Source: a phage. Taken from it: a DNA stretch of 64,000 nucleotides. The notes below the pieces were generated by a model that saw only the letters and a program-made list of their open reading frames with translations, ran no database searches and was not told the origin of the DNA. The stretch lies in sequence record PX880100.1; one strand, 5' to 3'. Every line of letters begins with the position of its first letter. Position 1 is the first letter of the stretch. Positions 4,472-42,109 of the stretch are shown piece by piece. A program made the translations under genes and the position numbers.

Positions 4472-5991
4472 ATATCGCTGGCCTGTTCACCTGTTGAATT
4501 TTCAGTTTTGTCTTTCTTAGCACGTTTAGGTTGAGCCGGCTTATCCTTCTCAATAGGGATAACGAACTCAGCTTCCATTTGAGATATATCTTCCATTGCT
4601 AGGTTGGTAGTGTTATCCATTCGCAGAGTTTCCCAGTTCATTTTAGGCATAAACTTCACGCTATCAGAAGAACGAGTCTTAACGAAGTCAAACATAATAG
4701 CACCTTGACCATTATCAGCTTTTGCAGCGTTAAGATTAGCAGCCATGTCGGCGGAATCAAGAATCCCCTTTGACATACGTGTTCTACCATCTTGATCAAT
4801 CTGGTAAGGAGCTACACCAGCCACGTTATGTTTCTGGCAGATAGATTTGAAAGACGAGCTAACAACCATCTGTTCTTTCCAGTCATACATATCAATGGTT
4901 TTAGAGTCTGGAAGTCGGGTTTGGTTAATATAGTCCAGTAAAGCTACTGTAACTTTATCTCCATATCTAGCAACTAATTTATTTAATTCTACGTCAACTG
5001 TTGTAATAGATAGCTCAGGGTCATAAACAATAATCATAGGAGTATGTAGCTCATACCCTTCTATTAGCTTACTTTCCATATCGTAGAAATCACTCATCTT
5101 AGCCATTGTGTACTGTTTAACGAAGTTATCGAAAAGCTCTTCACCCCCATTAAACATTCTAGCTCTAGTTCTGGCTAATCTCAATAGAGCTGCACCTTCT
5201 AGAGTATTATTACGCATTGCTAATGCTGATACACCAGCTAACATGGCTAGATTACGTCTAAATACTTCATGTTCTTTCATCTCAATTGAGAAGTATGGAG
5301 CAATATCTCCATTCAAATATTGCTGAACCTGTATGTTTGAACAGATAATGGATTTACCAGTACCACGCCAACCACCAAGCAGTAACGTTTCTGTGCGAGC
5401 TAAACCAATTTGAGCGTCGAACTCATTACAAATACCAAGAGCGATTAAGTTCAGTTTGGTATCTTCTTCTCTCTGGAAAATACGCATGTTATCTGCGTTG
5501 AATACTTTTCCAGTATTCGTTACTTTCTCTTCTAATTTTAAGTGAAGGGAGGCAACTCGGTTGAGAATTTCTCCCTGATCCAGCATTGTTAAATCTTGAA
5601 GCACGTCTGTTTCTAGAAGCTTCAGGAATAAATCTTGTGTATATTCGGCTTCTAGGACTTCAAGTGCCTGTTCCATGCTCACTTCTGGAATTTGAGTGTT
5701 AGCTAAGACGACTAGAGCTTGAGAAAGGCGGGCGTTCCTATTAGCTTCAAGCATAAGTGCGTCAATGGACGGCATTGTGTTATATTTTTTATAATAATTC
5801 TGGACGGCTTGGTAAATTGAGGAGAAAGCGTCATTAAAATGATCTTTATGCAGTTTTGAGAATGTTTCCAATGCTATTTGCTTCTGTTCGGAAGCTAGAA
5901 GCATCTTCAACACTACAGCTTGCACGTTAAACAAGGTCATTCTCCTTTGCACGCTTTCGTGCCTTCTAAATGCAAAAAGGGGAAGGAGCAT
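4468..5991 (-). CDS. replicative helicase-like RecA-fold ATPase
   Basis: 507 aa; Walker A LLGGWRGTGKS; GGAGG-type RBS before ATG at 5991 (alternative start at 5940); operon with primase and polymerase. Confidence 0.7.
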   Translation of the reverse strand: MLLPLFAFRRHESVQRRMTLFNVQAVVLKMLLASEQKQIALETFSKLHKDHFNDAFSSIYQAVQNYYKKYNTMPSIDALMLEANRNARLSQALVVLANTQIPEVSMEQALEVLEAEYTQDLFLKLLETDVLQDLTMLDQGEILNRVASLHLKLEEKVTNTGKVFNADNMRIFQREEDTKLNLIALGICNEFDAQIGLARTETLLLGGWRGTGKSIICSNIQVQQYLNGDIAPYFSIEMKEHEVFRRNLAMLAGVSALAMRNNTLEGAALLRLARTRARMFNGGEELFDNFVKQYTMAKMSDFYDMESKLIEGYELHTPMIIVYDPELSITTVDVELNKLVARYGDKVTVALLDYINQTRLPDSKTIDMYDWKEQMVVSSSFKSICQKHNVAGVAPYQIDQDGRTRMSKGILDSADMAANLNAAKADNGQGAIMFDFVKTRSSDSVKFMPKMNWETLRMDNTTNLAMEDISQMEAEFVIPIEKDKPAQPKRAKKDKTENSTGEQASDI

Positions 5992-30468: not shown

Positions 30469-31107
30469 ATGACCACTCGTATTTCTAAAACTCGTGCTCT
30501 GGCAACCATCAAATCTCTGGAAGCTAAAATCCGTAAAGCTACTGAACAACAGCTTCTGATCGCTGTTGGTGAAGGTAAGGATAAAAACCAGGTTGTAGTT
30601 GGCGCTGCAATCGAAGTAGCTGATCTGTCTACTCGTATTAAGACTGATTTCCAGTCTCTGCTGGATATGATGTCCCAGCGCGATCGTATCAAAGCTGCTC
30701 TGATTAAAAGCAATGCGGAAACAATCGTTGAGATTGGCTCTCGTAAGATGACTGTTGCGGAAGCAATTGAAGCTAAGCGTTCTATGGAACTTAAAGCTCA
30801 ACTGCTGGCTAACATGCGTAAGCAGTTCCATGCCGCTACAGTTAAGTTTAATGCGCAGAAAGCACAGTTTGATGCTAAATATGAGCGTTTGCAGGATAGC
30901 ATGGCTACCCGCGATAAGAAAACTTCCGAAGATGAAGTTAAAATGCAGCTCAACCTGCTGGAACTCAAGAATACTCCATTCTTGATTGATCCGCTGGAAC
31001 TGGAGAAGCTGATTAAGCAGCATGACGAGGAATACCAGGACTTTGCAACAAATGTTGACTTTGTTCTGTCCGAGTCTAACGCCTCTACCTTCATTGAAGT
31101 AGAGTAA
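30469..31107 (+). CDS. hypothetical coiled-coil protein (212 aa)
   Basis: Track ORF; Ala/Glu/Lys-rich helical sequence. Confidence 0.5.
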   Translation: MTTRISKTRALATIKSLEAKIRKATEQQLLIAVGEGKDKNQVVVGAAIEVADLSTRIKTDFQSLLDMMSQRDRIKAALIKSNAETIVEIGSRKMTVAEAIEAKRSMELKAQLLANMRKQFHAATVKFNAQKAQFDAKYERLQDSMATRDKKTSEDEVKMQLNLLELKNTPFLIDPLELEKLIKQHDEEYQDFATNVDFVLSESNASTFIEVE

Positions 31108-31490
31108 TAATTTAAAAGCTAGTAAATCGGTAGACGAAAGCCCAAGCATCTTACCTCGCAGCAGCGGTTGAAATACGAGGTTAAATAAGACCGCTGACCA
31201 TACTATAAAGTATAATCTATTGGAGATTATGTTTATTACACCAGCCTTTTAAGCTGACACGTAAGAACAAAGCGTCGTTGATATTACCGACACAACTTCA
31301 AAGATCAACATTTAAGTATGAAAGCTGAAAAGTTTAAAGAACTCAAACTTCTAAACTTCTAAAGCTAAAAGATGCAAAGTATTCGTTGATGATTCAAACC
31401 CTAGATCAAAGGTACATGGCTCATAAGATATGGCCTGTGGCGCCTCTAGGCTGTTTATCGGTTTACTAGTTTCACAATTTAAAAATGTAT

Positions 31491-31519
31491 TTGCTAATTT
31501 ATTAAGTTATCTGTATAAT
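31491..31519 (+). promoter_or_regulatory. early promoter
   Basis: TTGCTA, 17-bp spacer, TATAAT; approximate. Confidence 0.55.
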
Positions 31520-31549
31520 ATATTTTTAAATTGATGAAACGAGGCTATT

Positions 31550-31867
31550 ATGACTTTTCATATTTTGATTGATGATGTGCGTAATCTTCACGGAATGGAC
31601 ATTATCATTCGAACCCCAGAAGCCGCTGTAGAGTTTCTGAATAAAACTGATACCACCGGCCATTTCGTTTATATGGATAATGACTTGGCTGTAGATGGTA
31701 TGGAAGGTTATCAAATTCTTCGTTTACTCTTAGAATTTGGGCAGAGACCAAAGAAAGTGGTACTAGTAACCTCGAACCCAGTAGCTAAGCAAAATATGCG
31801 TAATGATTTGCTTGACTTAGGGTATAAAGAAAATCCCAATCGTGTTGAATATGATTGGCAGGAGTAA
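31550..31867 (+). CDS. hypothetical protein (105 aa)
   Basis: Track ORF downstream of promoter. Confidence 0.5.
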   Translation: MTFHILIDDVRNLHGMDIIIRTPEAAVEFLNKTDTTGHFVYMDNDLAVDGMEGYQILRLLLEFGQRPKKVVLVTSNPVAKQNMRNDLLDLGYKENPNRVEYDWQE

Positions 31868-31872
31868 AAAGA

Positions 31873-32322
31873 ATGAAGGCAGCTTTGCTTTTAGTAGCTG
31901 CCCTTACCTTCAGCTTTAGTAGTCAGGCATCGCACGATGCAAAAGAAATAGATTGCATTGCTAAAAATATCTATTTCGAAAGTCGTGGTGAGGGCATAAA
32001 GGGAATGACGGCGATTGCACATGTTACTAAAAACCGTGTAAACTCCGGTAAATTCCCAGATTCCTACTGTAAAGTAGTATATCAGTCTAACCAGTTCTCT
32101 TGGGTATCTAAGAGACCAAAAGTTGATAAAACTGATGAGGCTTGGCAAACCGCTAAGAATTTAGCTAGAGTGATATACTACGTTGATTTACCACAAGATC
32201 CTACATATGGAGCACTTTACTTCCATAGTGGTAAAGATAAACCTTACTGGACAAAGAAGTTTAAGAAAACAACTAAGATTAAGGGACATACGTTTTATAA
32301 ACCTGTTGTCACTAAAACTTAA
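31873..32322 (+). CDS. secreted SleB/CwlJ-like cell-wall hydrolase
   Basis: ATG at 31873 with GGAG RBS; signal peptide MKAALLLVAALTFSFSSQA; conserved segment IAKNIYFESRGEGIKGMTAIAHVTKNRVNSGKFPDSYCKVVYQSNQFSW. Confidence 0.6.
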   Translation: MKAALLLVAALTFSFSSQASHDAKEIDCIAKNIYFESRGEGIKGMTAIAHVTKNRVNSGKFPDSYCKVVYQSNQFSWVSKRPKVDKTDEAWQTAKNLARVIYYVDLPQDPTYGALYFHSGKDKPYWTKKFKKTTKIKGHTFYKPVVTKT

Positions 32323-32330
32323 AAATTTAC

Positions 32331-32359
32331 TTGCTTAAATACTTAAATTTCCGTATAAT
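32331..32359 (+). promoter_or_regulatory. early promoter
   Basis: TTGCTT, 17-bp spacer, TATAAT; approximate. Confidence 0.55.
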
Positions 32360-32390
32360 ACTTCCATAAATTAATGAGAGGAAGCGAAAT

Positions 32391-32561
32391 ATGAAATCAG
32401 TTGTAATTATTGGTGTTAACACTCGCGGTATTCGTACTACGAAAACTGTTAAAACTTCCAACGTTGCTGAGATCACTACGAACCCTAAAAAGTTTGATTT
32501 CGCCAAAGTCTCAGCAGTTATGACAGAACAATCTTTTAACCAAGCGTTAGGAATGAAATAA
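32391..32561 (+). CDS. hypothetical small protein (56 aa, below track cutoff)
   Basis: ATG at 32391 with GAGAGGAAG RBS after the promoter; stop overlaps ATG of next gene (TAATG). Confidence 0.5.
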   Translation: MKSVVIIGVNTRGIRTTKTVKTSNVAEITTNPKKFDFAKVSAVMTEQSFNQALGMK

Positions 32562-33004
32562 TGGAAGAGAATATTTTAGATGTTTTGCGTAGAGCTTTGC
32601 AGGATTCTAAGTTTAATGGTTCTGATAAAGAAGTCGCTAAAAGCTATCAGACCATAATCGGGGATCTTCAGCGTATTGATAAAGATTTCATCACTTCTGA
32701 ACAATTTGTGTCTTATCTCAAAGCTCAACTAAAAAGCATTAACCAGATGAAAGCTAAACTTCATGGTCAAGATCTTGATAGTTATAGCTTGCAGTCCGCT
32801 CAGTATGAATACATTCTAAATAAGTGGTTGCAGGAGTATCTGCCTCCTCAGTTATCTGATACTGAGATTCGTAAATACTTTGCAGAATTAGTTAAGCTAA
32901 ACCCTGGAATTACAAAAGGTATGCTGATGAAAGCGATTAAGGAAGAATTTCCTGGGCGTTATGATGGTGGTACTGCTGCTCAGATTGCTGGCGAATTTAA
33001 TTAA
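32561..33004 (+). CDS. hypothetical protein (147 aa)
   Basis: Track ORF; translationally coupled to the upstream small ORF. Confidence 0.5.
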   Translation: MEENILDVLRRALQDSKFNGSDKEVAKSYQTIIGDLQRIDKDFITSEQFVSYLKAQLKSINQMKAKLHGQDLDSYSLQSAQYEYILNKWLQEYLPPQLSDTEIRKYFAELVKLNPGITKGMLMKAIKEEFPGRYDGGTAAQIAGEFN

Positions 33005-33012
33005 AAATTTAT

Positions 33013-33041
33013 TTGCTAAATGCTTATAAATTCTGTATAAT
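33013..33041 (+). promoter_or_regulatory. PN25-type early promoter feeding an ORF-free RNA region
   Basis: TTGCTA, 17-bp spacer, TATAAT, ATATTCATAAATTAGAGAAC; no ORF for the next ~800 bp; approximate. Confidence 0.6.
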
Positions 33042-33264
33042 ATATTCATAAATTAGAGAACAGCGAGCCGATTACGCTGAGTGCAGAATCCCAACCGGAG
33101 CGCATTGAATAGAGTCGGTGGGTTAGTTGTAAAACTAGTACACAGGGGGCGGCAATCCCGGTTAGTGGCTAGAACGTGTAAAATGAGGCGTCTGAAACCT
33201 CTCCCCTAAACTCTTCTCTAATTTATAAATAGTGGGGTGTGGAAATCACTTATGTAGTAACACT

Positions 33265-33336
33265 GCCGTCCTAGTATAATTGGTATTATCAAGCCGTAAC
33301 TGGTGGAAGATGTAGGTTCGAATCCTACGGTCGGTA
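33265..33336 (+). ncRNA. tRNA-like element (T-arm and acceptor stem present, anticodon arm not foldable by eye)
   Basis: GTAGG-TTCGAAT-CCTAC T-arm and GCCGTCC/GGTCGGT acceptor pairing (one mismatch); no convincing anticodon stem; possible pseudo-tRNA. Confidence 0.3.
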
Positions 33337-33838
33337 AGAACTGGATAACTGATGCTTTTAACGTAAAAGCTTCCGAGGTTAGTTGCGCACTGCCTAAACC
33401 ACGCGGTAGTTGGTTCCAGACTAACCAACCAGTCTGCTGAATAGTTTTATTACGATTTAACTATGTCCAGGCTAAAGAAGAACTTTAGAAGGTATTCTAG
33501 GATAGTGAAGTTCTTTCTCCACATCGGAGTAGTTTTTCAAGCTATCCACAAAGTGGGAAATGCTGACATGAGAGATGTCACTAATGGTGCACAATAGCAC
33601 AGGTAATTCGCGATAATTCCTGTTGAGTAGCAGCAAAAGGCGGGAAGTCATGACCCCAAGCCTAACCGAGTCCTCAATATACCGCAGGACATAACCACTA
33701 AGTCACCCTGACTTAAACTGGAAAATAATAGACGTTACTGTATTTTGTCTTGAAATACTTAATGAGTGAGACTTATGACTCTCCCGGTATCGTCTGTATT
33801 TTTAAGAGTTTTTACGAGAGTTCTTAAAAATACTTAAA

Positions 33839-33913
33839 CGGGGTGTAGTCTAAGGGAGAGGCAGGAGTCTTCTAAATTCCTTTATGCAGGTTCGAATCCT
33901 GTCACCTCGGCCA
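33839..33913 (+). tRNA. tRNA-Arg (anticodon UCU)
   Basis: Acceptor CGGGGTG/CACCTCG, D-arm GTCT..AGGC, anticodon arm GGAGT-CTTCTAA-ATTCC, T-arm GCAGG-TTCGAAT-CCTGT, encoded CCA. Confidence 0.7.
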
Positions 33914-33947
33914 ATTTTATTAACTGTAACTAAAACAAAGGAAATAT

Positions 33948-34895
33948 ATGTTTAATACTAAAAATATGAAAGAACTGACTTCTGAGCAGAAAGTAATTCG
34001 TACTATTAAACGTTGGGGGATTGGTGCTGTAGTTGGTTTAGCAGGTTTAGTTCTAGCTCTTAACTCCTATACCGTTGTTCAAGACGGTACTGTTAAGACC
34101 CAGACTTTCTTGGGTAAAGTTGATCCTAATCCAGTATTACCTGGTTTCCATGTTGTAAATCCTTTTGCTTCTTTTGATACTTTTAGTACTAAAGATATTG
34201 CTCTAAAATTAGATAAACTTCAGGTTCCTAGTCAGGATAAGTTTAAATCCACTGTTGACCTGACTGTTATGTTGCAGTTTGATGGTTCTAAAGCACCGAT
34301 TAACCGTATTAATGCAGGTAATCAGGATCAAGCGTTAGACAAATATGTAACTGAAAAATTACTGTCTACTATTCGTGAGTTTGGTAAGTCTGTACCTAAA
34401 GCACAAGATTTATTTGATGCTAAAATTCAGGCTCAATTGCAAACTGCAATTCAACAGGAAGTTGAAGAGTATGCACGCCCATATGGTTACACAGTTAAGC
34501 AGGTGTTCCTTCAGGATATTACTTTGCCACCGGTAATCATGGAACAGGTACAGAATACCAAAGTTCGTGAAGAACAGGTTAATGCTGCTAAAGCTGAATT
34601 AGCTCGTGTTGAACAGGAAGCACAGCAAAAAGTTAAACAAGCAGAAGCAGATCGTGAAGCTCGCAACAACCAAGCTATTGCTAATGAACGTGACGCAGAT
34701 GCTAAACTGTACGCAGCTAAGAAAGAAGCTGAAGCTAACGCCGCATTGCAACGTACCATTACTCCTGAGATGATTCGCTGGAAGCAACTGGAAGTTGAAA
34801 TGATCCGTGCTCAGAAGTATCAAGGTGGTGTACCACAGACGGTAGTTGGTACTGGTTATGATGGCCAAATGATCATGGATATGCGTAATAAATAA
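33948..34895 (+). CDS. SPFH/band-7 (prohibitin/HflC-like) membrane protein
   Basis: 315 aa; N-terminal TM helix (WGIGAVVGLAGLVLALN), central SPFH-like region, C-terminal coiled coil rich in A/E/Q/K/R. Confidence 0.6.
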   Translation: MFNTKNMKELTSEQKVIRTIKRWGIGAVVGLAGLVLALNSYTVVQDGTVKTQTFLGKVDPNPVLPGFHVVNPFASFDTFSTKDIALKLDKLQVPSQDKFKSTVDLTVMLQFDGSKAPINRINAGNQDQALDKYVTEKLLSTIREFGKSVPKAQDLFDAKIQAQLQTAIQQEVEEYARPYGYTVKQVFLQDITLPPVIMEQVQNTKVREEQVNAAKAELARVEQEAQQKVKQAEADREARNNQAIANERDADAKLYAAKKEAEANAALQRTITPEMIRWKQLEVEMIRAQKYQGGVPQTVVGTGYDGQMIMDMRNK

Positions 34896-34919
34896 TACCC
34901 GCATGTAACATCTGAAGTA

Positions 34920-34954
34920 AGCCCTGCGTTTCCTGGAGAGCGCAGGGCTTTTCT
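34920..34954 (+). terminator. rho-independent terminator
   Basis: AGCCCTGCG...CGCAGGGCT hairpin followed by TTTCT; approximate. Confidence 0.6.
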
Positions 34955-34991
34955 ATATAATGTAATTATAAAACTAACTAGGAGATTAAAC

Positions 34992-35510
34992 ATGGGTGTT
35001 GATGAATTAACACAGCATCTTCTATCTAGAGGATTTGATGCAGATAAATATCATTGCTGGTTAAGTCCGGAAGGATGGCTAACAGTCCCGTTGTATGATT
35101 TCTCTGGGATGTTGAGGGGCTATCAAACTTATAATCCTTCTGCTCCAAAAGGTCATGGTAAGTATCCCTTTGAAGCTAAATATTTTACCTATTCTACTAC
35201 CCAGTGTGTATGGGGATTAGAAACTCTCAATGGAGATGAAAAAGTAGTATTGATCGCTGAATCTGTATTTAAGGCAGTTGCGTTACATAACGCTGGTTAT
35301 CCAGCCCTAGCAATGTTGGGTTCTTCTCCAGGAAAAGCGTTATTAAAGCAACTGAAATTATTACCTTTTAAATTGGTAGCTGTCGGGGATAACGATCCTG
35401 CGGGTGAAAAATTTGCTAGAAAATTAAACGGCTTTGTTTCTCCTGTAGATGTGGATGAGATGTCTACCGAAAACTTGAAAAATTTTCTTGCTATGAAGCT
35501 AAATTTCTAA
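34992..35510 (+). CDS. hypothetical protein (172 aa)
   Basis: Track ORF with GGAGA RBS. Confidence 0.5.
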   Translation: MGVDELTQHLLSRGFDADKYHCWLSPEGWLTVPLYDFSGMLRGYQTYNPSAPKGHGKYPFEAKYFTYSTTQCVWGLETLNGDEKVVLIAESVFKAVALHNAGYPALAMLGSSPGKALLKQLKLLPFKLVAVGDNDPAGEKFARKLNGFVSPVDVDEMSTENLKNFLAMKLNF

Positions 35511-35531
35511 TATAATATATCTTATAAATTC

Positions 35532-35620
35532 GGAAGAATAGCATAACGGTATTGCAGCAGATTGCTAATCTGTCGGTTTGAAATATAGCCTTGTGGGTTC
35601 GATTCCCACTTCTTCCGCCA
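35532..35620 (+). tRNA. tRNA-Ser (anticodon GCU), class II
   Basis: Acceptor GGAAGAA/TTCTTCC, 3-bp D-stem, anticodon arm GCAGA-TTGCTAA-TCTGT, long variable arm, T-arm GTGGG-TTCGATT-CCCAC, encoded CCA. Confidence 0.7.
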
Positions 35621-35626
35621 AATTCT

Positions 35627-35704
35627 GGTTCTCAAGCTCATATGGTATGAGCACCCAGCTCATAACTGGAAGGTACGTAGGTTCGAATCCTCGGGGAGCC
35701 ACCA
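35627..35704 (+). tRNA. tRNA with CAU anticodon (Met or Ile2 type)
   Basis: Acceptor GGTTCTC/GGGAGCC with G-U pairs, D-arm GCTC..GAGC, anticodon loop CTCATAA, encoded CCA; T-stem has two mismatches, so fold is uncertain. Confidence 0.5.
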
Positions 35705-35922
35705 ACTTAATTAGGGGATTACAAGTGGAATTATACATAGTTTATGTTGTGTTTATTCAAGATAGAGAATACCCTGATGAATATAAAAAAGGATATAGGT
35801 TAGCCAGAGCTACCTCTGAAGTCCAAGCTATGGATAAAGTGGCAGATTATATGATTACGGTAGAAAACGTACACTATATCGACTACCTTGAGGCCTCAAA
35901 AGTAATTGACTAAGGAGACTAT

Positions 35923-36108
35923 ATGTCCAAGTTTCAAGAACTCAAGCAAGAGCTAGAAGAATGTGCCTGCCCTGAGTGTAGGGGAATTGGTGAAAGTTCT
36001 GATGCAGAAGCAGGAGATACTTTTTGCAATATCTGGGTTTGCCCAAATTGCAATGGTACAGGTATTAATCCTAACTGTGGTATTTCTCTAGATATTGAAA
36101 GAGGGTAA
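35923..36108 (+). CDS. small zinc-ribbon-like protein (61 aa)
   Basis: Track ORF; CxxC...CxxC cysteine pairs (CACPECRG, CPNCNG); AAGGAG RBS. Confidence 0.5.
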   Translation: MSKFQELKQELEECACPECRGIGESSDAEAGDTFCNIWVCPNCNGTGINPNCGISLDIERG

Positions 36109-36209
36109 TATCTGTGAAACTAAAAGATTATTATATTGGTTGGTTTGTGGGACTAGTAGTAGGATTTTCACTAGGCTATAATATGTATCAACTAATAAAC
36201 TGATTACAC

Positions 36210-36286
36210 GGGGGTGTAATCGAATTGGCATAGGTACTGGACTTAAAATTCAGGTTTTGTGGGTTCGAATCCCACCACCCCTACCA
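36210..36286 (+). tRNA. tRNA with UAA anticodon (Leu-type anticodon, short variable arm)
   Basis: Acceptor GGGGGTG/CACCCCT, anticodon arm CTGGA-CTTAAAA-TTCAG, T-arm GTGGG-TTCGAAT-CCCAC, encoded CCA; D-arm not cleanly resolved. Confidence 0.5.
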
Positions 36287-36301
36287 AATTAAGGAAATAA
36301 G

Positions 36302-36469
36302 ATGTATAGACCTCCACCTCCGCCAACACGTCGTTCTAGAGAAGTTATCCTCATGGAATTGACTAAAAACTTCAAGGCAACTCTTGAAGATAGAGATTTA
36401 GGCACGGATGAAGACATTGATTTTATTTGTAGACTATTAAAGATGAAACTGGAGAAACAACATGGCTAA
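36302..36469 (+). CDS. hypothetical small protein (55 aa, below track cutoff)
   Basis: ATG at 36302 with AAGGAAATAAG RBS right after the tRNA; proline-rich N-terminus; overlaps the next ORF start. Confidence 0.5.
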   Translation: MYRPPPPPTRRSREVILMELTKNFKATLEDRDLGTDEDIDFICRLLKMKLEKQHG

Positions 36470-36668
36470 TCCTGAAATTACCGCACAACGTTTCATGCTT
36501 AAAGGCATGATTGCTGAAGCAGGTATGACTCAAGAGGTTGCAGACTTTCATAAGCAAATTCTTGATATTATAACTCTAGCTAAAGAGACTGGAGAAAAAG
36601 AGCACGCAGCAGCAATTATGGCTATATCTCTTATTAGTCTAGACTTGGCTGAAGAATCTGGAGTTTAG
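36462..36668 (+). CDS. hypothetical protein (68 aa)
   Basis: Track ORF. Confidence 0.5.
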   Translation: MANPEITAQRFMLKGMIAEAGMTQEVADFHKQILDIITLAKETGEKEHAAAIMAISLISLDLAEESGV

Positions 36669-36698
36669 CTCCTCCAAATAGAATTTTTAAAAATGTAC

Positions 36699-36728
36699 TT
36701 GCCTTTTGCTTTAAATTTCTGATATAAT
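36699..36728 (+). promoter_or_regulatory. early promoter
   Basis: TTGCCT, 18-bp spacer, TATAAT, then AGTTATATAAATTGATGAAGGAG; approximate. Confidence 0.55.
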
Positions 36729-36758
36729 AGTTATATAAATTGATGAAGGAGTTAACTA

Positions 36759-37034
36759 ATGCAAAATCGTGTTATAGCAACTGGTATTGAAAGTGCAATC
36801 TGTAAATCCTGGGAAGGCTGGGAAGGTGAGATTGAATGGCTTTATTTCTATGATGTAGAACTTCTGCCGGAAGTTAAAGCTAAATGTGTTGAAGCTGGAA
36901 TGGCTCCAGATGCAAAAGCTGATATTGATATTTCAATGTCTGAACTTAAAGGCCGTGTAATTACTGTTAGTGATGAGGGTGAAGAAGTTTTCGAACTTCC
37001 ATTCTCCTTAACTGTCACTCCTAAGTTCGACTAA
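36759..37034 (+). CDS. hypothetical protein (91 aa)
   Basis: Track ORF downstream of promoter. Confidence 0.5.
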   Translation: MQNRVIATGIESAICKSWEGWEGEIEWLYFYDVELLPEVKAKCVEAGMAPDAKADIDISMSELKGRVITVSDEGEEVFELPFSLTVTPKFD

Positions 37035-37070
37035 CTAATACAGCACTGAGCAAGTTCTTTAAAATTTGAC

Positions 37071-37099
37071 TTGCTCAGTGCCTTAAAACTTGGTATAAT
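37071..37099 (+). promoter_or_regulatory. early promoter feeding a tRNA block
   Basis: TTGCTC, 17-bp spacer, TATAAT; followed by a 14-bp inverted-repeat leader hairpin and tRNAs; approximate. Confidence 0.5.
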
Positions 37100-37161
37100 A
37101 GTTATCTAATTTGGAAACATATTTAAAAGTGTTTAAACTAGTATTTGAATACTTTTAAATA

Positions 37162-37267
37162 TGTTGGATTAGTATCGTAGAGGTAGCGAAGCAGACTGTA
37201 AATCTGCCGACTCGGAAGGGTCTCGGGTGGTTCGACTCCATCATCCATCATCCATCATCCAACACCA
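37162..37267 (+). tRNA. tRNA-Tyr-like (anticodon GUA), class II, atypically long; boundaries uncertain
   Basis: Perfect anticodon arm GCAGA-CTGTAAA-TCTGC, D-stem TCG/CGA, T-arm GGTGG-TTCGACT-CCATC; 3' region carries ATCCATC-ATCCATC-ATCCAAC then ACCA; GTTGGAT pairs with the last copy. Confidence 0.5.
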
Positions 37268-37274
37268 AATTTAA

Positions 37275-37351
37275 GTCCTGTTAGACAAACTGGTAAAGTC
37301 ACTACCCTTTCAAGGTAGGATTTGCGGGTTCGATCCCCGCACAGGACGCCA
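37275..37351 (+). tRNA. tRNA-Glu (anticodon UUC)
   Basis: Acceptor GTCCTGT/ACAGGAC, anticodon arm CTACC-CTTTCAA-GGTAG, T-arm GCGGG-TTCGATC-CCCGC, encoded CCA. Confidence 0.8.
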
Positions 37352-37360
37352 ATTTCTGCA

Positions 37361-37436
37361 TTCCTAGAGTGTTACTGGACAGCATGTCGGTCTCCAAAAT
37401 CGTACGGTCTAGGTTCGAGTCCTAGTAGGTTTGCCA
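37361..37436 (+). tRNA. tRNA-Trp-like (anticodon CCA), acceptor pairing unresolved
   Basis: Anticodon arm TCGGT-CTCCAAA-ATCGT and T-arm CTAGG-TTCGAGT-CCTAG with encoded CCA; spacing to neighbouring tRNAs fits, but 5' acceptor strand could not be paired by eye. Confidence 0.4.
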
Positions 37437-37442
37437 AAATTT

Positions 37443-37517
37443 GCACCTTTAGCTGAGATGGATTAGCGCTTGCCTGAAGAGCTTGAGAGGTTCGTTCGAT
37501 ACGAACAGGGTGCACCA
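37443..37517 (+). tRNA. tRNA-Phe-like (anticodon GAA)
   Basis: Acceptor GCACCTT/AGGGTGC, D-arm GCTG..TAGC, T-arm GTTCG-TTCGATA-CGAAC, encoded CCA; anticodon loop CTGAAGA but stem has two U-U mismatches. Confidence 0.55.
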
Positions 37518-37519
37518 AA

Positions 37520-37807
37520 TTGAGGGGGCTGCTGATGCATCCTGAAAACTTCTTTATTTACTGCGCTGATAAGTCGCTGAAACGTAGAATTAACAAAGTC
37601 TATCATTATCGTGCTAGTCAACAGCCTTATGTATATGCTTTTGACGGTGATCACATTCCATTAGAACAATTATCTTGTGATTACATGATATTGAAGAACT
37701 TTGACGAGACAAAGATCTCAAGCGTTCATAATCGACAGAATCCCTTAACGTGGAAATATAAGAAGAAAAAGAAAGGCATCAAATTCTTAAAAAATGTAGT
37801 TGCTTAG
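37520..37807 (+). CDS. hypothetical protein (95 aa)
   Basis: Track ORF starting 3 nt after the tRNA; TTG start. Confidence 0.45.
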   Translation: MRGLLMHPENFFIYCADKSLKRRINKVYHYRASQQPYVYAFDGDHIPLEQLSCDYMILKNFDETKISSVHNRQNPLTWKYKKKKKGIKFLKNVVA

Positions 37808-37828
37808 TTTCCAAAAGTTCTGTATAAT
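37800..37828 (+). promoter_or_regulatory. PN25-type early promoter
   Basis: TTGCTT, 17-bp spacer, TATAAT, then AATTACATAAATTGAACTGGAG; approximate. Confidence 0.55.
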
Positions 37829-37857
37829 AATTACATAAATTGAACTGGAGAAGCAAC

Positions 37858-38082
37858 ATGACAGAACAAGAATTGAATGAACGTAAGCTGGTAATGCTCC
37901 GCTTACTAAACATTTTCTCTGGTATGGATGGGGGTATTGACTTTGTTCATCTACGTTCTTTTGTAGAAGAAGCAGAAGGTGAATCTATCACTAAAATCCT
38001 TAAACATATGGGTTTACTATTAGATGCTGCTGGTGTAGCAACGGAATATAACCTCGAAGATCTACCGGAGCGTATTAAATGA
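37858..38082 (+). CDS. hypothetical protein (75 aa)
   Basis: ATG at 37858 with GGAG RBS; track lists an extended frame from 37840. Confidence 0.5.
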   Translation: MTEQELNERKLVMLRLLNIFSGMDGGIDFVHLRSFVEEAEGESITKILKHMGLLLDAAGVATEYNLEDLPERIK

Positions 38083-38267
38083 AGAAGCCAAAAGCTAAAT
38101 TAGTTAAGTTCGACTGTTGTGACACAGAAATCTTATTCACTAAGTTTGGTGAATTTAAGATGTGTGAATGTGGAACATGTGGTTATGATCATGGTGATGG
38201 ATATTATTGCAGGACTCTTGGACCAGCAAATCTAATCCACTTTTCATGGCCGGAAGATAAAGAATAA
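38079..38267 (+). CDS. small zinc-ribbon-like protein (62 aa)
   Basis: Track ORF; cysteine clusters FDCCDTE and CECGTCGYDHGDGYYC; 4-nt overlap with upstream gene. Confidence 0.5.
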   Translation: MKKPKAKLVKFDCCDTEILFTKFGEFKMCECGTCGYDHGDGYYCRTLGPANLIHFSWPEDKE

Positions 38268-38269
38268 TT

Positions 38270-38344
38270 GCATCCTTGTCCGAGTGGCTTAGGTGACGGT
38301 CTGCAAAATCGTCTAGGTTGGTTCAATTCCAGCAGGGTGCTCCA
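38270..38344 (+). tRNA. tRNA-Cys (anticodon GCA)
   Basis: Acceptor GCATCCT/AGGGTGC, anticodon arm ACGGT-CTGCAAA-ATCGT, T-arm GTTGG-TTCAATT-CCAGC, encoded CCA. Confidence 0.7.
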
Positions 38345-38350
38345 AATTCA

Positions 38351-38433
38351 GGGTCGTTAGCCAAGCGGTTTGGCGGTGGACTGTTAATCCATGTCGAAAG
38401 ACAACGTAGGTTCGAATCCTACACGGCCCGCCA
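38351..38433 (+). tRNA. tRNA-Asn (anticodon GUU) with an enlarged (~13-nt) variable region
   Basis: Acceptor GGGTCGT/ACGGCCC, D-arm GCCA..TGGC, anticodon arm GTGGA-CTGTTAA-TCCAT, T-arm GTAGG-TTCGAAT-CCTAC, encoded CCA. Confidence 0.65.
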
Positions 38434-38535
38434 AATTCTGTGTAGAGTTAAGTAAACCGGTAGCCAACCAGCTATCATTGCTGACATCGAATTCAGCCAC
38501 AGATACCATTTTCATTAATAACTGAGGAAACAAGC

Positions 38536-38721
38536 ATGTCCAAGAATGTAATTGCGCAGCTAGAAGTTCATCGTGATAGCACTATCAACAATATTGAAGT
38601 TGAGAAGAAATACATCGAAGAACTTAAACATGATATACTAGTAAGTCTCAACCGTCTTAATGTACGAAAAGAGTTTCTTAAAGAACTTAATGCAGCTATT
38701 GAAAAACTCAAAGCTGAGTAA
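38536..38721 (+). CDS. hypothetical protein (61 aa)
   Basis: Track ORF with GAGGAAAC RBS. Confidence 0.5.
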   Translation: MSKNVIAQLEVHRDSTINNIEVEKKYIEELKHDILVSLNRLNVRKEFLKELNAAIEKLKAE

Positions 38722-39086: not shown

Positions 39087-39434
39087 ATGCGTAATGCTAA
39101 AGAAGAGTTGTTACTTGCCTTAAAAAATACTAATTCTGAAGTTAAGTGTATTAAAATAGAATTCGGGTATTATGGGGACAAAAAAGTTTGGGTATTACCT
39201 CTGGGGTATACAGAAGAAGATATTGGGGATTTTCTTAATAACCTAGACTTTGAGTATGATTCTGGTTATGGTGGACAACTACTTTATGGTAATGTATGGT
39301 TTGCCGATGGAACCTGGCTAGAACGTGGGGAATATGATGGAGCTGAGTGGTGGGAATACAAGGCTACTCCAGCAATTCCAGAGGAATGCCGAACAATTAA
39401 TGGTGAAGTAGATAATACTTTAAGGTTAAACTAA
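39087..39434 (+). CDS. hypothetical protein (115 aa)
   Basis: Track ORF. Confidence 0.5.
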   Translation: MRNAKEELLLALKNTNSEVKCIKIEFGYYGDKKVWVLPLGYTEEDIGDFLNNLDFEYDSGYGGQLLYGNVWFADGTWLERGEYDGAEWWEYKATPAIPEECRTINGEVDNTLRLN

Positions 39435-39438
39435 TAAA

Positions 39439-39538
39439 ATTTCAGTGCAGAACACGGAGCTAGCAATTCGGAAGTGCTGACTCATGATAAGCTGCCTATG
39501 TACTTGCAAAGCGGTCGTGTCCAAGACTCGGACTCTTG
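39439..39538 (+). ncRNA. structured ORF-free element closed by a ~10-bp long-range stem
   Basis: TTCAGTGCAG at the 5' end pairs with CTTGCACTGAA at the 3' end, enclosing internal hairpins (GTCC-AAGACTC-GGAC); no ORF. Confidence 0.35.
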
Positions 39539-39556
39539 CACTGAAAACAATCAAAC

Positions 39557-39684
39557 ATTCTAGCGTGGTTGATGGGGAAACCAGCTTGGCTAGGGCAGAA
39601 GCTCGTTCGATTCGAGTGAAAGAATGGTTCTCGTAAGTCCGCACAAGTGATAATAGGTTCGAGTCCTGTCTAGAATGACACTAT
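39557..39684 (+). ncRNA. tRNA-like element of atypical length (~128 nt)
   Basis: ATTCTAG...CTAGAAT acceptor-like pairing, D-arm-like GGTT-GATGGGGA-AACC, two T-arm-like motifs; too long for a canonical tRNA. Confidence 0.3.
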
Positions 39685-39826
39685 AAAGTTTACTTATTAT
39701 GTAGGTTCCGATAGATCGGCGGGTCTATTCTGGCATTTAAGAGAGGTCTCGCAAACTTCTTTGTCAGCCGTGGGGTTGGTAGCCTCCAGGTGGCCTACAC
39801 AATAAGTAAATTTATTAAAAATTCAT

Positions 39827-39855
39827 TTGCTATTTCTCTTAATTATCTGTATAAT
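39827..39855 (+). promoter_or_regulatory. PN25-type early promoter
   Basis: TTGCTA, 17-bp spacer, TATAAT, then ATATTTTATAAAGTGAAGAGAAGG; approximate. Confidence 0.55.
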
Positions 39856-39887
39856 ATATTTTATAAAGTGAAGAGAAGGAAAGCAAA

Positions 39888-40046
39888 ATGAAACACAAGA
39901 TAGCTCAAGTTTTTATGGCATTATGGTGTATGCCAATAGCTATAACAGCATTTAATCTAGATACTTTTACTATAGAAGAAAAATGTATCGGATTAGTTAG
40001 TGGCTTTAGTATGCTTGGCTTATCTTTGTTGTGGTTGAAGAAATAA
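39888..40046 (+). CDS. hypothetical small membrane peptide (52 aa, below track cutoff)
   Basis: ATG at 39888 with GAAGGAAAG RBS after the promoter; hydrophobic sequence; stops 4 nt before tRNA-Pro. Confidence 0.5.
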   Translation: MKHKIAQVFMALWCMPIAITAFNLDTFTIEEKCIGLVSGFSMLGLSLLWLKK

Positions 40047-40957: not shown

Positions 40958-41195
40958 TATTTATATAAATTGATGAGGAGAAATCCTCATCATAGTTCAC
41001 TAAGGTATTAGCTCGACCTAGGACTGGCTGCCAAAAAGCACGATCCCTACGATTCGGGAGAAGTTCTAGATTGGTCCACTAGATTCAGCGGCAACTGAAT
41101 AGTGTATTGGGTTTGCGAGATGACGTAGTTCCTTCCGCTCTAAGCGAAGGTGCTGTAGTTACGCCGAGCTAATAGCCTTAGTAAACTAAAGAATT

Positions 41196-41666: not shown

Positions 41667-42032
41667 AAATCTTGAAGTATGCCGGAATCGGTAGACGGGG
41701 CTGCCTAAAAGGTTTATAGGGAACATCCACTCCCTGCAACATACCCCATAAAGCGGCTGAGATAAATGGTCTATCTCGTGAAGGTTCAAGTCCTTCTGCT
41801 TCTTGATACATCAATGGCTCAAAGTGTAACGGCGCTATTTGATGCGCTTAGTAAGACTTCCCCGACATGCGTTCGGGAGTAAGCTGCTAAGGCTAGAGTA
41901 GAAGAGTTTCTGAGAGCCGCCACAATTGAAGATTCGTACTCGTCTTGAGCTGCGTGCAATAGGAGATAACTTGATTAGTATTCTAGAACATGCTAATTGA
42001 GGAAGGTTTCGCTAACCCTGCGAGTTTTCAAT

Positions 42033-42109
42033 TGTGGCTATATCATAATTGGTTAATGATCCTGATTGTGAATCAGGCCTATGTGGATTCGAATTCCACT
42101 AGCCACCCC
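42033..42109 (+). tRNA. tRNA-His (anticodon GUG)
   Basis: Acceptor GTGGCTA/TAGCCAC, D-arm TCAT..ATGA, anticodon arm CCTGA-TTGTGAA-TCAGG, T-arm GTGGA-TTCGAAT-TCCAC, encoded CCA. Confidence 0.85.

What the first reader, a model, noticed from the sequence alone, without database searches (positions are those of the whole stretch)
39436..39810. Two structured elements closed by long-range stems plus an over-length tRNA-like element
Between ORF 39087..39434 and the next promoter there is no ORF. Positions ~39439-39538 are closed by a ~10-bp stem (TTCAGTGCAG / CTTGCACTGAA) and ~39700-39800 by a ~13-bp stem (CTTATTATGTAGG / CCTACACAATAAG), each enclosing internal hairpins. Between them, 39557..39684 has acceptor-like pairing (ATTCTAG/CTAGAAT), a D-arm-like hairpin and two T-arm-like motifs but is ~128 nt, too long for a canonical tRNA. 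These are candidate stable small RNAs of unknown function.
Basis: seen in the sequence. Interest (0 to 1): 0.6.

Follow-up and report, generated by a model that had tools for sequence, protein, structure and literature searches.

The report
Known phage T5 orphan stable RNAs
This stretch of a T5-like phage genome encodes two small structured RNAs already listed in the phage T5 record (the tRNA look-alike RNA2, and RNAIV) plus a very highly conserved unannotated neighbour; two are clearly real structured RNAs, but what any of them does is still unknown.

Summary
The window is a T5-like phage (Tequintavirus) and the finding lies in its tRNA gene cluster. The middle element (39556-39680) is the orthologue of T5 "RNA2, tRNA-like stable RNA with unknown functions". 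The third (39699-39801) is T5 "RNAIV, stable RNA with unknown functions".

Covariation strongly supports RNA2 as a full tRNA scaffold. Its anticodon loop is replaced by a conserved 55-nt domain (39589-39643) holding a second T-loop hairpin and an invariant AAUGG. The family has no Rfam match. It extends to Klebsiella, Erwinia, Serratia and Yersinia T5-like phages, and to T4-like Acinetobacter phages, where the acceptor stem is absent.

RNAIV is a covariation-supported four-way junction. It sits inside a precursor stem of 11 invariant outer base pairs plus 5 inner pairs.

The first element (39439-39547) is unannotated. It is the most conserved segment of the region (1.4% divergence, against 16% at third codon positions of the neighbouring ORF), but its fold has no covariation support.

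The function of all three is unknown. My best guess for RNA2 is a non-decoding tRNA mimic that binds a tRNA-recognising factor.

The parts
39439..39547 (+). Element 1: an unannotated, very highly conserved segment closed by an 11-bp stem (39440-39450 with 39535-39545). Candidate extra stable RNA; internal fold unresolved.
   Evidence: Not annotated in T5 or BF23. Found in 220 phage records, all at least 94% identical. Divergence is 1.41%, against 8.3% for the adjacent ORF and 16% at its third codon positions. No covariation. Fold z -1.4 to -1.6. No Rfam match.
39556..39680 (+). RNA2: orthologue of T5 rna2 (125 nt), a tRNA scaffold with the anticodon loop replaced by a conserved domain.
   Evidence: 95.2% identity to T5 rna2 over 125 nt. 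Model R1 scores it 144.7 bits, against at most 39 bits for ordinary tRNAs. Covariation.
39557..39563 (+). RNA2 acceptor stem, 5' strand. It pairs with 39670-39676. C39556 can pair with G39677 as an eighth pair.
   Evidence: All 7 pairs change on both sides across the family.
39566..39583 (+). RNA2 D arm: 5-bp stem and loop GAUGGGGA.
   Evidence: All 5 pairs have compensatory changes.
39585..39647 (+). RNA2 anticodon-arm replacement. A 4-bp stem (39585-39588 with 39644-39647) carries the 55-nt inner domain (39589-39643). The domain holds: helix GGGC/GUCC (39593-39596 with 39637-39640); a short helix (39598-39599 with 39631-39632); a UAA bulge (39634-39636); a T-loop hairpin CUCG-UUCGAUU-CGAG (39602-39616); and an invariant AAUGG (39623-39627).
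   Evidence: Stem: 4 of 4 pairs compensatory. Inner hairpin: 3 of 4 compensatory. The pair at columns 47-86 has four Watson-Crick types (AU 11, UA 3, CG 1, GC 1) and one mismatch. Invariant columns are listed.
39653..39669 (+). RNA2 T arm: AUAGG-UUCGAGU-CCUGU.
   Evidence: 3 of 5 pairs are compensatory and 2 never vary.
39688..39811 (+). RNAIV precursor stem-enclosed unit. The outer 11-bp stem (39688-39698 with 39801-39811) is essentially invariant in all 24 distinct sequences.
   Evidence: Ten of the 11 outer pairs never vary; the eleventh is broken in 2 sequences.
39699..39801 (+). RNAIV: orthologue of T5 rnaIV (103 nt). It has a closing stem (39701-39705 with 39794-39798), a 2-bp CC/GG helix, and three hairpins at 39710-39729 (loop GGCG), 39730-39767 (invariant loop CUCGCAA) and 39772-39786.
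   Evidence: 98.1% identity to T5 rnaIV. 99.2% of cells paired and 9 compensatory pairs. Fold of 39690-39812 has z -4.46.
39827..39855 (+). Promoter-like site TTGCTA-17-TATAAT, matching the position of T5 promoter P13a. It marks the downstream limit of the RNA cluster.
   Evidence: annotated promoter in AKFV33, T5 and BF23.

Best explanation
The 375-nt stretch holds three RNA modules in a row. They are most likely co-transcribed with the surrounding tRNA genes of a T5-like phage: no promoter or terminator signal separates them from the genes upstream.

Shown:
- Module 2 is T5 RNA2 and module 3 is T5 RNAIV, both catalogued as stable RNAs of unknown function.
- RNA2 is a complete tRNA scaffold with acceptor stem, D arm, variable loop and T arm.
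- Its anticodon loop is replaced by a conserved 55-nt domain. That domain contains a second hairpin with a canonical T-loop (UUCGAUU), an invariant AAUGG and a C-N-CGUAA-N-UCC segment.
- The inner domain and the T arm are the conserved core. The acceptor stem is dispensable, because it is absent in the T4-like Acinetobacter phage versions.
- RNAIV is a four-way junction inside a long precursor stem.

Inferred:
- RNA2 is cut out by the host tRNA-processing enzymes (RNase P at the 5' end, trimming at the 3' end). RNAIV is released by cuts within its flanking duplex.
- The GG of AAUGG docks on the inner T-loop, as G18-G19 do on the T-loop of a tRNA. This would give RNA2 a second tRNA 'elbow' where the anticodon should be.
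- RNA2 therefore cannot decode. It most likely works in trans as a tRNA mimic that occupies a protein or ribosomal site recognising tRNA shape. A plausible role is a decoy against host tRNA-targeting defences, or titration of a tRNA-handling enzyme.
- Element 1 is probably a further stable RNA released between the upstream gene and RNA2.
For: Identity: the T5 and BF23 annotations; 95-98% identity and conserved gene order.

RNA2 structure: 23 of 29 pairs change on both sides, 97.2% of cells are paired, and controls are far lower. The extended model is tested.

tRNA scaffold: ARAGORN calls a tRNA in 12 of 17 family members once the inner domain is swapped for a 7-nt loop, and in 0 of 17 with it. 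Model R1 picks up ordinary tRNAs at 20-39 bits through the scaffold.

Conserved core: the invariant columns lie in the inner domain and the T arm. Acceptor-less versions occur in Acj133, Acj9, ZZ1, L052 and L061.

Selection: divergence is 1.4% (element 1), 4.1% (RNA2) and 5.7% (RNAIV), against 16% at third codon positions of the neighbouring ORF.

Context: in every phage with tRNA calls nearby, the element sits in or next to a tRNA cluster. L038 is the exception, with no tRNA called in the fetched stretch.

RNAIV. There is no terminator or promoter inside the region.
Against: - No expression or end-mapping data were available here. 'Stable RNA' rests on the depositors' annotation.
- The second-elbow contact involves invariant bases, so covariation cannot test it.
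- No protein partner was found. The two candidates that co-occur locally, a YqeY-like protein and a T5.085-like protein, are far more widespread than RNA2.
- A T5 strain lacking 30661-38625, which removes RNA2 and RNAIV, still grows (PMC11464382). Any function is therefore conditional.
- Element 1 has no structural support and could be constrained at the DNA level.
Confidence: 0.5

Rival explanations
1. The three structures act only in cis, as processing and stability signals of the polycistronic tRNA-region transcript. The tRNA-like RNA2 would recruit RNase P to cut the transcript, and the stem-closed elements would protect neighbouring RNA ends from exonucleases. The released pieces would be by-products with no function of their own.
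For: They lie between an ORF and the next promoter with no terminator. Each is closed by a terminal stem. The slot upstream of RNA2 holds different stem-closed cassettes in different phages. RNAIV's flanking duplex is almost invariant.
Against: A pure punctuation role needs only the acceptor and T-arm shape. Yet the most conserved parts are the inner-domain loops, and the acceptor stem is the part lost in Acinetobacter phages. Element 1 is conserved at almost every base, which is far more than a protective hairpin requires. The T5 record lists them as stable RNAs that accumulate.
Confidence: 0.2
2. RNA2 is a decayed or rearranged tRNA gene (a pseudo-tRNA or a fused tRNA dimer), and the others are non-functional spacers kept by linkage.
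For: The scaffold is tRNA-like and the inner hairpin looks like a duplicated T arm. The region is dispensable in the laboratory.
Against: Compensatory changes maintain every helix across Demerecviridae and T4-like phages. The insert is more conserved than the scaffold. Divergence is well below that of neighbouring synonymous sites.
Confidence: 0.05
3. RNA2 is a miniature tmRNA-like or otherwise aminoacylated RNA that enters the ribosome. The frame GCA...UAA in its inner domain would act as a tag.
For: The topology resembles the tmRNA tRNA-like domain: acceptor stem, T arm, and an insert in place of the anticodon arm. In the window an open frame, AEARSIRVKEWFS-stop, ends at the conserved UAA. 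ZZ1 has an RF-1-domain ORF next to its copy.
Against: - The frame is broken in the Klebsiella and Yersinia members.
- There is no conserved G3:U70; the acceptor sequence and discriminator base vary freely, and there is no encoded CCA in the window.
- The acceptor stem is missing altogether in the Acinetobacter phage versions.
- ARAGORN and Rfam find no tmRNA.
Confidence: 0.03
4. Element 1 only: it is constrained as DNA rather than as a folded RNA, for example as a protein-binding or recombination/homing site, or as a recently spread mobile cassette bounded by inverted repeats.
For: Conservation is near-uniform with no loop/stem pattern. It is present or absent among close relatives and sits in different contexts, after an ORF in T5 and after a tRNA-like gene in SB9 and TrudiGerster. 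The few substitutions in predicted stems are mostly disruptive.
Against: It is single-copy, with no paralogue in the window. Only 2 of 220 records have a second copy. It is flanked by RNA genes on the same strand, so it would be released by their processing. No promoter-like site overlaps it.
Confidence: 0.15

Closest known systems
Phage T5 / BF23 RNA2 and RNAIV (GenBank AY543070 rna2, rnaIV; AJ604530)
   Same: Orthologous: 95.2% and 98.1% identity over the full length. Same order (T5.067-like ORF, ~120-nt gap, RNA2, RNAIV, promoter P13a) and same strand as the tRNAs.
   Different: Nothing essential differs. BF23 and many relatives carry a tRNA-Gly plus about 150 nt between RNA2 and RNAIV; T5 and the window lack it. 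The ~120-nt element upstream of RNA2 is not annotated in either record.
Phage T4 species 1 and species 2 RNAs (rnaC, rnaD)
   Same: These are also small stable RNAs of unknown role encoded in a phage tRNA cluster (PMC3014915). rnaC has a T-arm and acceptor-like 3' part.
   Different: They are not homologous. The RNA2 model matches only the T-arm and acceptor part of rnaC at 18.6 bits, no better than ordinary tRNAs, and nothing matches the inner domain.
Canonical tRNA (Rfam RF00005)
   Same: Acceptor stem, D arm with GG, 5-nt variable loop and T arm with a UUCGAGU loop. The scaffold is called a tRNA once the insert is removed.
   Different: There is no anticodon loop; a 55-nt structured domain takes its place. 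There is no Rfam or ARAGORN hit. The 3' end reads GACA, not NCCA, in the window. C rather than U occupies position 8.
tmRNA tRNA-like domain
   Same: The topology: acceptor stem and T arm retained, with the anticodon arm replaced by another module.
   Different: No G3:U70, no conserved tag frame, no pseudoknots, only 125 nt, and no tmRNA call.
YrlA, the bacterial Y RNA-like RNA with a tRNA-like domain (Rfam RF02553)
   Same: A non-decoding RNA that mimics tRNA arms, including a T-loop. This comparison rests on my own knowledge of the family.
   Different: No match to RF02553 over RNA2 in six family members: the window copy (39380-39900) and five divergent members. The arrangement differs, and no Ro/Rsr gene was seen nearby.

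Membership tests
T5 RNA2 (tRNA-like stable RNA, AY543070 rna2) | Sequence orthology over the whole annotated RNA | tested here: met
   95.2% identity, positions 1-125 of 125, at 39556-39680; alignment.
T5 RNA2 (tRNA-like stable RNA, AY543070 rna2) | Same genomic position (after the T5.067-like ORF, before RNAIV and promoter P13a) | tested here: met
T5 RNA2 (tRNA-like stable RNA, AY543070 rna2) | Accumulates as a discrete stable RNA in infected cells | not testable with these tools
   Only the depositors' annotation is available.
T5 RNAIV (stable RNA, AY543070 rnaIV) | Sequence orthology and position | tested here: met
   98.1% identity, positions 1-103 of 103, at 39699-39801; gene order.
Canonical tRNA (RF00005) | Acceptor stem, D arm and T arm with a T-loop | tested here: met
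   Covariation in all three. The scaffold is called a tRNA by ARAGORN after removal of the insert, in 12 of 17 members.
Canonical tRNA (RF00005) | Anticodon stem capped by a 7-nt anticodon loop | tested here: not met
   The 4-bp stem carries a 55-nt structured domain instead. There is no ARAGORN or Rfam tRNA hit, even at E<=10.
tmRNA | Alanine identity pair G3:U70 in the acceptor stem | tested here: not met
   The third acceptor pair is U-A in the window. It is G-U only in Serratia phage Kamaji. The acceptor stem is absent in the Acinetobacter phage versions.
tmRNA | Conserved tag reading frame ending in a stop codon | tested here: not met
   The frame is interrupted or shifted in the Klebsiella and Yersinia members.
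T4 rnaC / rnaD | Homology of sequence and structure | tested here: not met
   18.6 bits, limited to the T arm and acceptor-like part; the inner domain is not matched.
YrlA / Y RNA-like (RF02553) and all other Rfam 15 families | Match to the family covariance model | tested here: not met
   Nothing over RNA2, RNAIV or element 1 at E<=10 in the window. Nothing over RNA2 in five divergent members.
Self-cleaving ribozymes and riboswitches in Rfam (for element 1) | Match to any curated model | tested here: not met
   the only hits in 39380-39900 are chance-level (E above 4), and none overlaps 39439-39547.

The most novel reading that the evidence does not exclude
RNA2 is a previously unrecognised class of 'two-elbow' tRNA mimic: a tRNA body whose anticodon loop is replaced by a second T-loop/GG module. 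It is shared by T5-like and Acinetobacter T4-like phages. It would act in trans as a decoy or inhibitor for a host factor that reads tRNA shape, for example a tRNA-cleaving defence nuclease. Element 1 would be a further, unannotated and very highly conserved phage non-coding RNA with its own partner.
Probability: 0.15. Interest if true: 0.75.

Novelty: already known. Interest (0 to 1): 0.38.

Why it matters
The small stable RNAs in the tRNA clusters of T5 and T4 are still annotated, or described in reviews, as having no known function. This analysis adds no function, but it makes the question more testable for RNA2. It gives a covariation-backed structure and shows that the insert and the T arm, not the acceptor stem, are the conserved core. 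It also shows that the family crosses from T5-like to T4-like phages and has no match in Rfam. Phage tRNA clusters are now linked to escape from tRNA-targeting defences; for example, T5 tRNA-Lys counters PARIS (PMC11464382). A conserved non-decoding tRNA mimic in the same cluster is therefore a reasonable candidate for an RNA-based counter-defence. The unannotated element 1 is conserved more tightly than the neighbouring tRNA genes, so it may be a cheap target for a Northern blot.

Tried and rejected
1. Rfam at gathering threshold and at E<=10, on the window and on five divergent homologues: nothing on any of the three elements.

2. tmRNA-like tag frame in RNA2: the frame is not conserved and there is no G3:U70.

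3. Homology with T4 rnaC. An eye-catching shared string, UCGAUUCGAG...CGUAAG, led me to test this. The model matches only the T arm and acceptor-like part.

4. Pairing of the D-loop with UCCGCA: L049 has a quite different D-loop and the same UCCGCA. A scan of all column pairs was too noisy, with about 10 lineages. It gave only the column 47-86 pair and a single-lineage 41-97 signal.

5. Protein partner by neighbourhood:
- The YqeY-like protein (window 32561-33004) sits about 200 nt upstream of RNA2 in L038. However, it is widespread in tRNA-rich phages that lack RNA2, and it was not detected in Acinetobacter phages.
- The T5.085-like protein lies near the element in Acj9, L052 and L061, but occurs in 744 very diverse phage records.
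- The RF-1-domain ORF next to the ZZ1 copy is not conserved in L052, and no homologue was found among the window ORFs.

6. Element 1 as a multi-copy mobile element: it is single-copy.

7. Element 1 as coding sequence: there are only short ORFs and no third-position pattern.

8. Literature searches found no paper describing a function for T5 RNA2 or RNAIV. The original Russian-group papers are not in the searchable library.

Full report
**What the window is.** The 1.1 kb around the finding is 100% identical to Escherichia phage IME178 and Salmonella phages PK7/PK8, and 99.5% identical to AKFV33. All are T5-like phages of the genus Tequintavirus. ARAGORN finds 24 tRNA genes between 33.8 and 43.9 kb, all on the + strand, and the finding sits among them. 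Rfam reports only tRNAs at gathering threshold. It finds nothing credible in 39380-39900 even at E<=10.

**The observation.** Only short ORFs of 20-72 codons overlap the stretch, on either strand, and they overlap the RNA genes described below. A promoter-like site, TTGCTA-17-TATAAT, lies at 39827-39855. No terminator-like site lies in the region. A single perfect 10-bp inverted repeat at 40-130 nt spacing is not rare in this genome: there are 15 k-mer hits against a mean of 8.8 in dinucleotide shuffles. The stems alone are therefore weak evidence. Two within 375 nt is about 0.05 expected, by my own arithmetic from that rate.

**Identity.** The BF23 tRNA-region record (AJ604530) and the T5 genome record (AY543070) annotate the homologous DNA. 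They list rna2, 125 nt, 'tRNA-like stable RNA with unknown functions', and rnaIV, 103 nt, 'stable RNA with unknown functions'.
- Mapped to the window, these are 39556-39680 (95.2% identity) and 39699-39801 (98.1% identity).
- The order is the same as in T5: T5.067-like ORF, a gap of about 120 nt, RNA2, RNAIV, promoter P13a.
It is unannotated in both records, although it is 98.3% identical to T5.
- BF23 and many relatives carry a tRNA-Gly and about 150 further bases between RNA2 and RNAIV. T5 and the window do not.
- All seven 'stable RNAs' of the T5 record have orthologues in the window.

**RNA2: family and structure.** Homologues occur in about 420-480 phage records. They include:
- the Salmonella, Escherichia and related T5-like phages;
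- Klebsiella Sugarlandvirus, Erwinia phage KEY, Pantoea phage AAS21, Serratia phages Kamaji and Slocum, and Yersinia phiR2-01;
- T4-like Acinetobacter phages 133, Acj9 and ZZ1;
- several metagenomic contigs of 164-167 kb.

I built a covariance model from 19 diverse sequences. It scores family members at 79-148 bits and ordinary tRNAs at no more than 39 bits. On the 33-sequence alignment fitted to the model, 97.2% of cells are paired and 23 of 29 pairs change on both sides. No shuffle out of 500 reaches these values, and slid controls reach at most 48.5% paired. The alignment was fitted to the structure, which favours it. However, the compensatory changes are plain in the raw sequences. The acceptor stem reads AUUCUAG/CUAGAAU, AGACAAU/AUUGUCU, UACGGGG/UCCCGUA, GGGUACU/GGUAUCC, GACUUUG/CAAAGUC or ACUGACC/GGUCAGU in different members.

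The structure has these parts:
- a 7-bp acceptor stem, with a possible eighth pair C39556-G39677;
- a D arm with loop GAUGGGGA;
- a 4-bp stem where the anticodon stem would be;
- a 5-nt variable loop and a canonical T arm.

In place of the anticodon loop there is a 55-nt domain (39589-39643). It contains:
- helix GGGY/RUCC, which covaries C-G with U-A;
- a short adjoining helix whose second pair shows four Watson-Crick types (AU 11, UA 3, CG 1, GC 1, one mismatch);
- a UAA bulge;
- a hairpin whose stem covaries (CUCG/CGAG, ACGG/CCGU, CUGG/CCAG, UUGG/CCAA, AUGG/CCAU) and whose loop UUCRAUU matches the tRNA T-loop consensus;
- a single-stranded UGAAAGAAUGGUUC with an invariant AAUGG.

When this domain is replaced in silico by a 7-nt loop, ARAGORN calls a tRNA in 12 of 17 members. 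With the domain present it calls none.

The invariant positions lie in the inner domain and the T arm, while the scaffold stems vary freely. In Acinetobacter phages 133, Acj9 and ZZ1, and in contigs L052 and L061, the acceptor stem is missing altogether. There the element abuts neighbouring tRNA genes.

**Inference on how RNA2 works.** A tRNA scaffold with acceptor stem and T arm is the substrate shape of RNase P and the 3' trimming enzymes (established knowledge). Release from the polycistronic transcript by the tRNA machinery is therefore the simplest reading.

By analogy with G18-G19 pairing to positions 55-56 of the T-loop in every tRNA, I propose that the invariant GG of AAUGG docks on the inner T-loop. 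RNAalifold independently paired these bases. The helices below the hairpin would stack on it. The result would be a second 'elbow' at the end of the molecule where the anticodon should be. This cannot be tested by covariation, because the bases never vary.

Such an RNA cannot decode. The acceptor stem is dispensable, and acceptor sequence, discriminator base and 3' tail are not conserved. Aminoacylation is therefore unlikely to be the conserved activity. I consider a trans-acting tRNA mimic that occupies a factor reading tRNA shape the most likely mechanism. A decoy for tRNA-targeting defence nucleases is one concrete possibility.

The function must be conditional. A T5 strain lacking 30661-38625, which removes RNA2 and RNAIV, is viable (PMC11464382).

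**RNAIV.** Homologues occur in 409 records, down to 76% identity in EPS7-like phages. On 24 distinct sequences the RNAalifold structure is 99.2% paired. Nine pairs have compensatory changes, no shuffle out of 500 reaches this, and slid controls reach at most 55%. Most compensatory changes come from one lineage, plus independent variation in hairpin 3, so the support is good but narrower than for RNA2.

The RNA is a four-way junction with a closing stem, a 2-bp CC/GG helix and three hairpins. The middle hairpin has an invariant 7-nt loop, CUCGCAA. The mature T5 ends (39699 and 39801) fall at an internal mismatch of a longer precursor stem. Its outer 11 bp are essentially invariant, even in the lineage where the body has diverged. 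The 3' arm runs to within about 15 nt of the -35 hexamer of P13a and into the region annotated as that promoter in T5, which may explain part of that invariance. Whether the cuts are made by RNase III or by other enzymes cannot be decided here.

**Element 1.** It is present in 220 records, all at least 94% identical. Across the fetched T5-like loci it is the least divergent segment:

| Segment | Divergence from the window |
|---|---|
| Element 1 | 1.41% |
| tRNA-Pro | 2.4% |
| RNA2 | 4.1% |
| RNAIV | 5.7% |
| Adjacent ORF | 8.3% |
| Third codon positions of that ORF | 16% |

This argues for function but leaves no covariation. Of the substitutions that fall in the predicted stems, six pairs are disrupted and two show compatible one-sided changes. 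RNAalifold chooses a different inner fold. Folding energy is unremarkable, with z of -1.4 to -1.6.

In SB9 and TrudiGerster the element follows an unannotated ~90-nt tRNA-like sequence ending in ACCA, rather than an ORF. In SH9 (L035) a different 70-nt stem-closed sequence fills the slot. In others RNA2 directly follows tRNA-Lys. Element 1 is thus an optional cassette. The processing of its neighbours would release it as a piece of about 120 nt. I regard it as a candidate stable RNA, with a DNA-level constraint as a live alternative.

**Comparison with known families.**
- These are the T5 RNA2 and RNAIV genes themselves, so the finding is already known as an entity.
- The analogous T4 RNAs, rnaC and rnaD, are also of unknown role (PMC3014915). 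They are not homologous: rnaC matches only through its T arm and acceptor-like part.
- RNA2 fails the defining tRNA feature (anticodon loop) and the defining tmRNA features (G3:U70, conserved tag frame).
- It has no match to YrlA or any other Rfam family.

**Searches for a protein partner.** Neighbourhood comparison produced two local co-occurrences, a YqeY-like protein and a T5.085-like protein. Both are far more widely distributed than RNA2, so they are not specific partners.

**Verdict.** What this analysis adds:
- a covariation-supported architecture for RNA2, with a second T-loop module in place of the anticodon loop;
- the spread of RNA2 into T4-like Acinetobacter phages and its absence from Rfam;
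- a supported fold for RNAIV;
- the recognition that the unannotated upstream element is more strongly conserved than the neighbouring RNA genes.

Function remains unknown for all three.

Noticed in passing
window 38436-38508, 41006-41177, 41671-41815, 41816-41922, 41927-42032: Orthologues of the other five 'stable RNAs' in the T5 record (rna3, rna2H, rna1, rnaI, rnaIII; 85-100% identity). None is called by ARAGORN or Rfam. All are listed as function unknown in the T5 record.
   Followed up: partly
window 41919-41930 with 42029-42040: A perfect 12-bp inverted repeat (GCCACAATTGAA) encloses rnaIII. Its 5' arm starts in the GCCA end of rnaI and its 3' arm runs into the first bases of tRNA-His. 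This is the same 'closed by a long stem' layout as RNAIV and element 1.
   Followed up: no
window 33265-33336 and 35627-35701: Two Rfam tRNA hits (35.5 and 38.2 bits) that ARAGORN did not report. The second corresponds in position to T5 tRNA-Ile2 (CAU).
   Followed up: no
window 32561-33004 (+); L038 3005-3508: A YqeY/GatB-tail-like protein (PHROG 1460 'tRNA amidotransferase', T5.081 homologue) is encoded just upstream of the tRNA cluster. In the T4-like contig L038 its homologue lies about 200 nt upstream of the RNA2 copy. The family is widespread in tRNA-rich phages, so it is not a specific partner of RNA2. It may still be a general tRNA-binding accessory protein.
   Followed up: partly
L055 611-701 and L054 ~176-266: An unannotated ~90-nt tRNA-like sequence lies between tRNA-Lys and element 1 in Epseptimavirus phages TrudiGerster and SB9. 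It has a 7-bp acceptor pairing (GGGGUCU/AGACUCC) followed by ACCA. ARAGORN does not call it.
   Followed up: partly
L035 6484-6552: In Salmonella phage SH9 the slot between tRNA-Lys and RNA2 holds a different ~70-nt sequence closed by an 8-bp stem (AUAGAGU.../...ACUCUAU). This suggests that the position accepts interchangeable stem-closed cassettes.
   Followed up: no
L066 (Acinetobacter phage ZZ1) 8401-8524 and 8540-8770; also 4663-4733: The acceptor-less RNA2-like element of ZZ1 lies directly upstream of a 76-aa ORF annotated 'RF-1 domain peptide chain release factor', in which the GGQ motif appears to be replaced. The same cluster has a CUA-anticodon (amber suppressor) tRNA. L052 and L061 also carry CUA tRNAs.
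   Followed up: partly
window 39763-39769 versus 39630-39636: The invariant RNAIV hairpin loop CUCGCAA resembles the conserved CUCGUAA of the RNA2 inner domain (shared CUCGYAA). This may be coincidence or a shared recognition motif.
   Followed up: no
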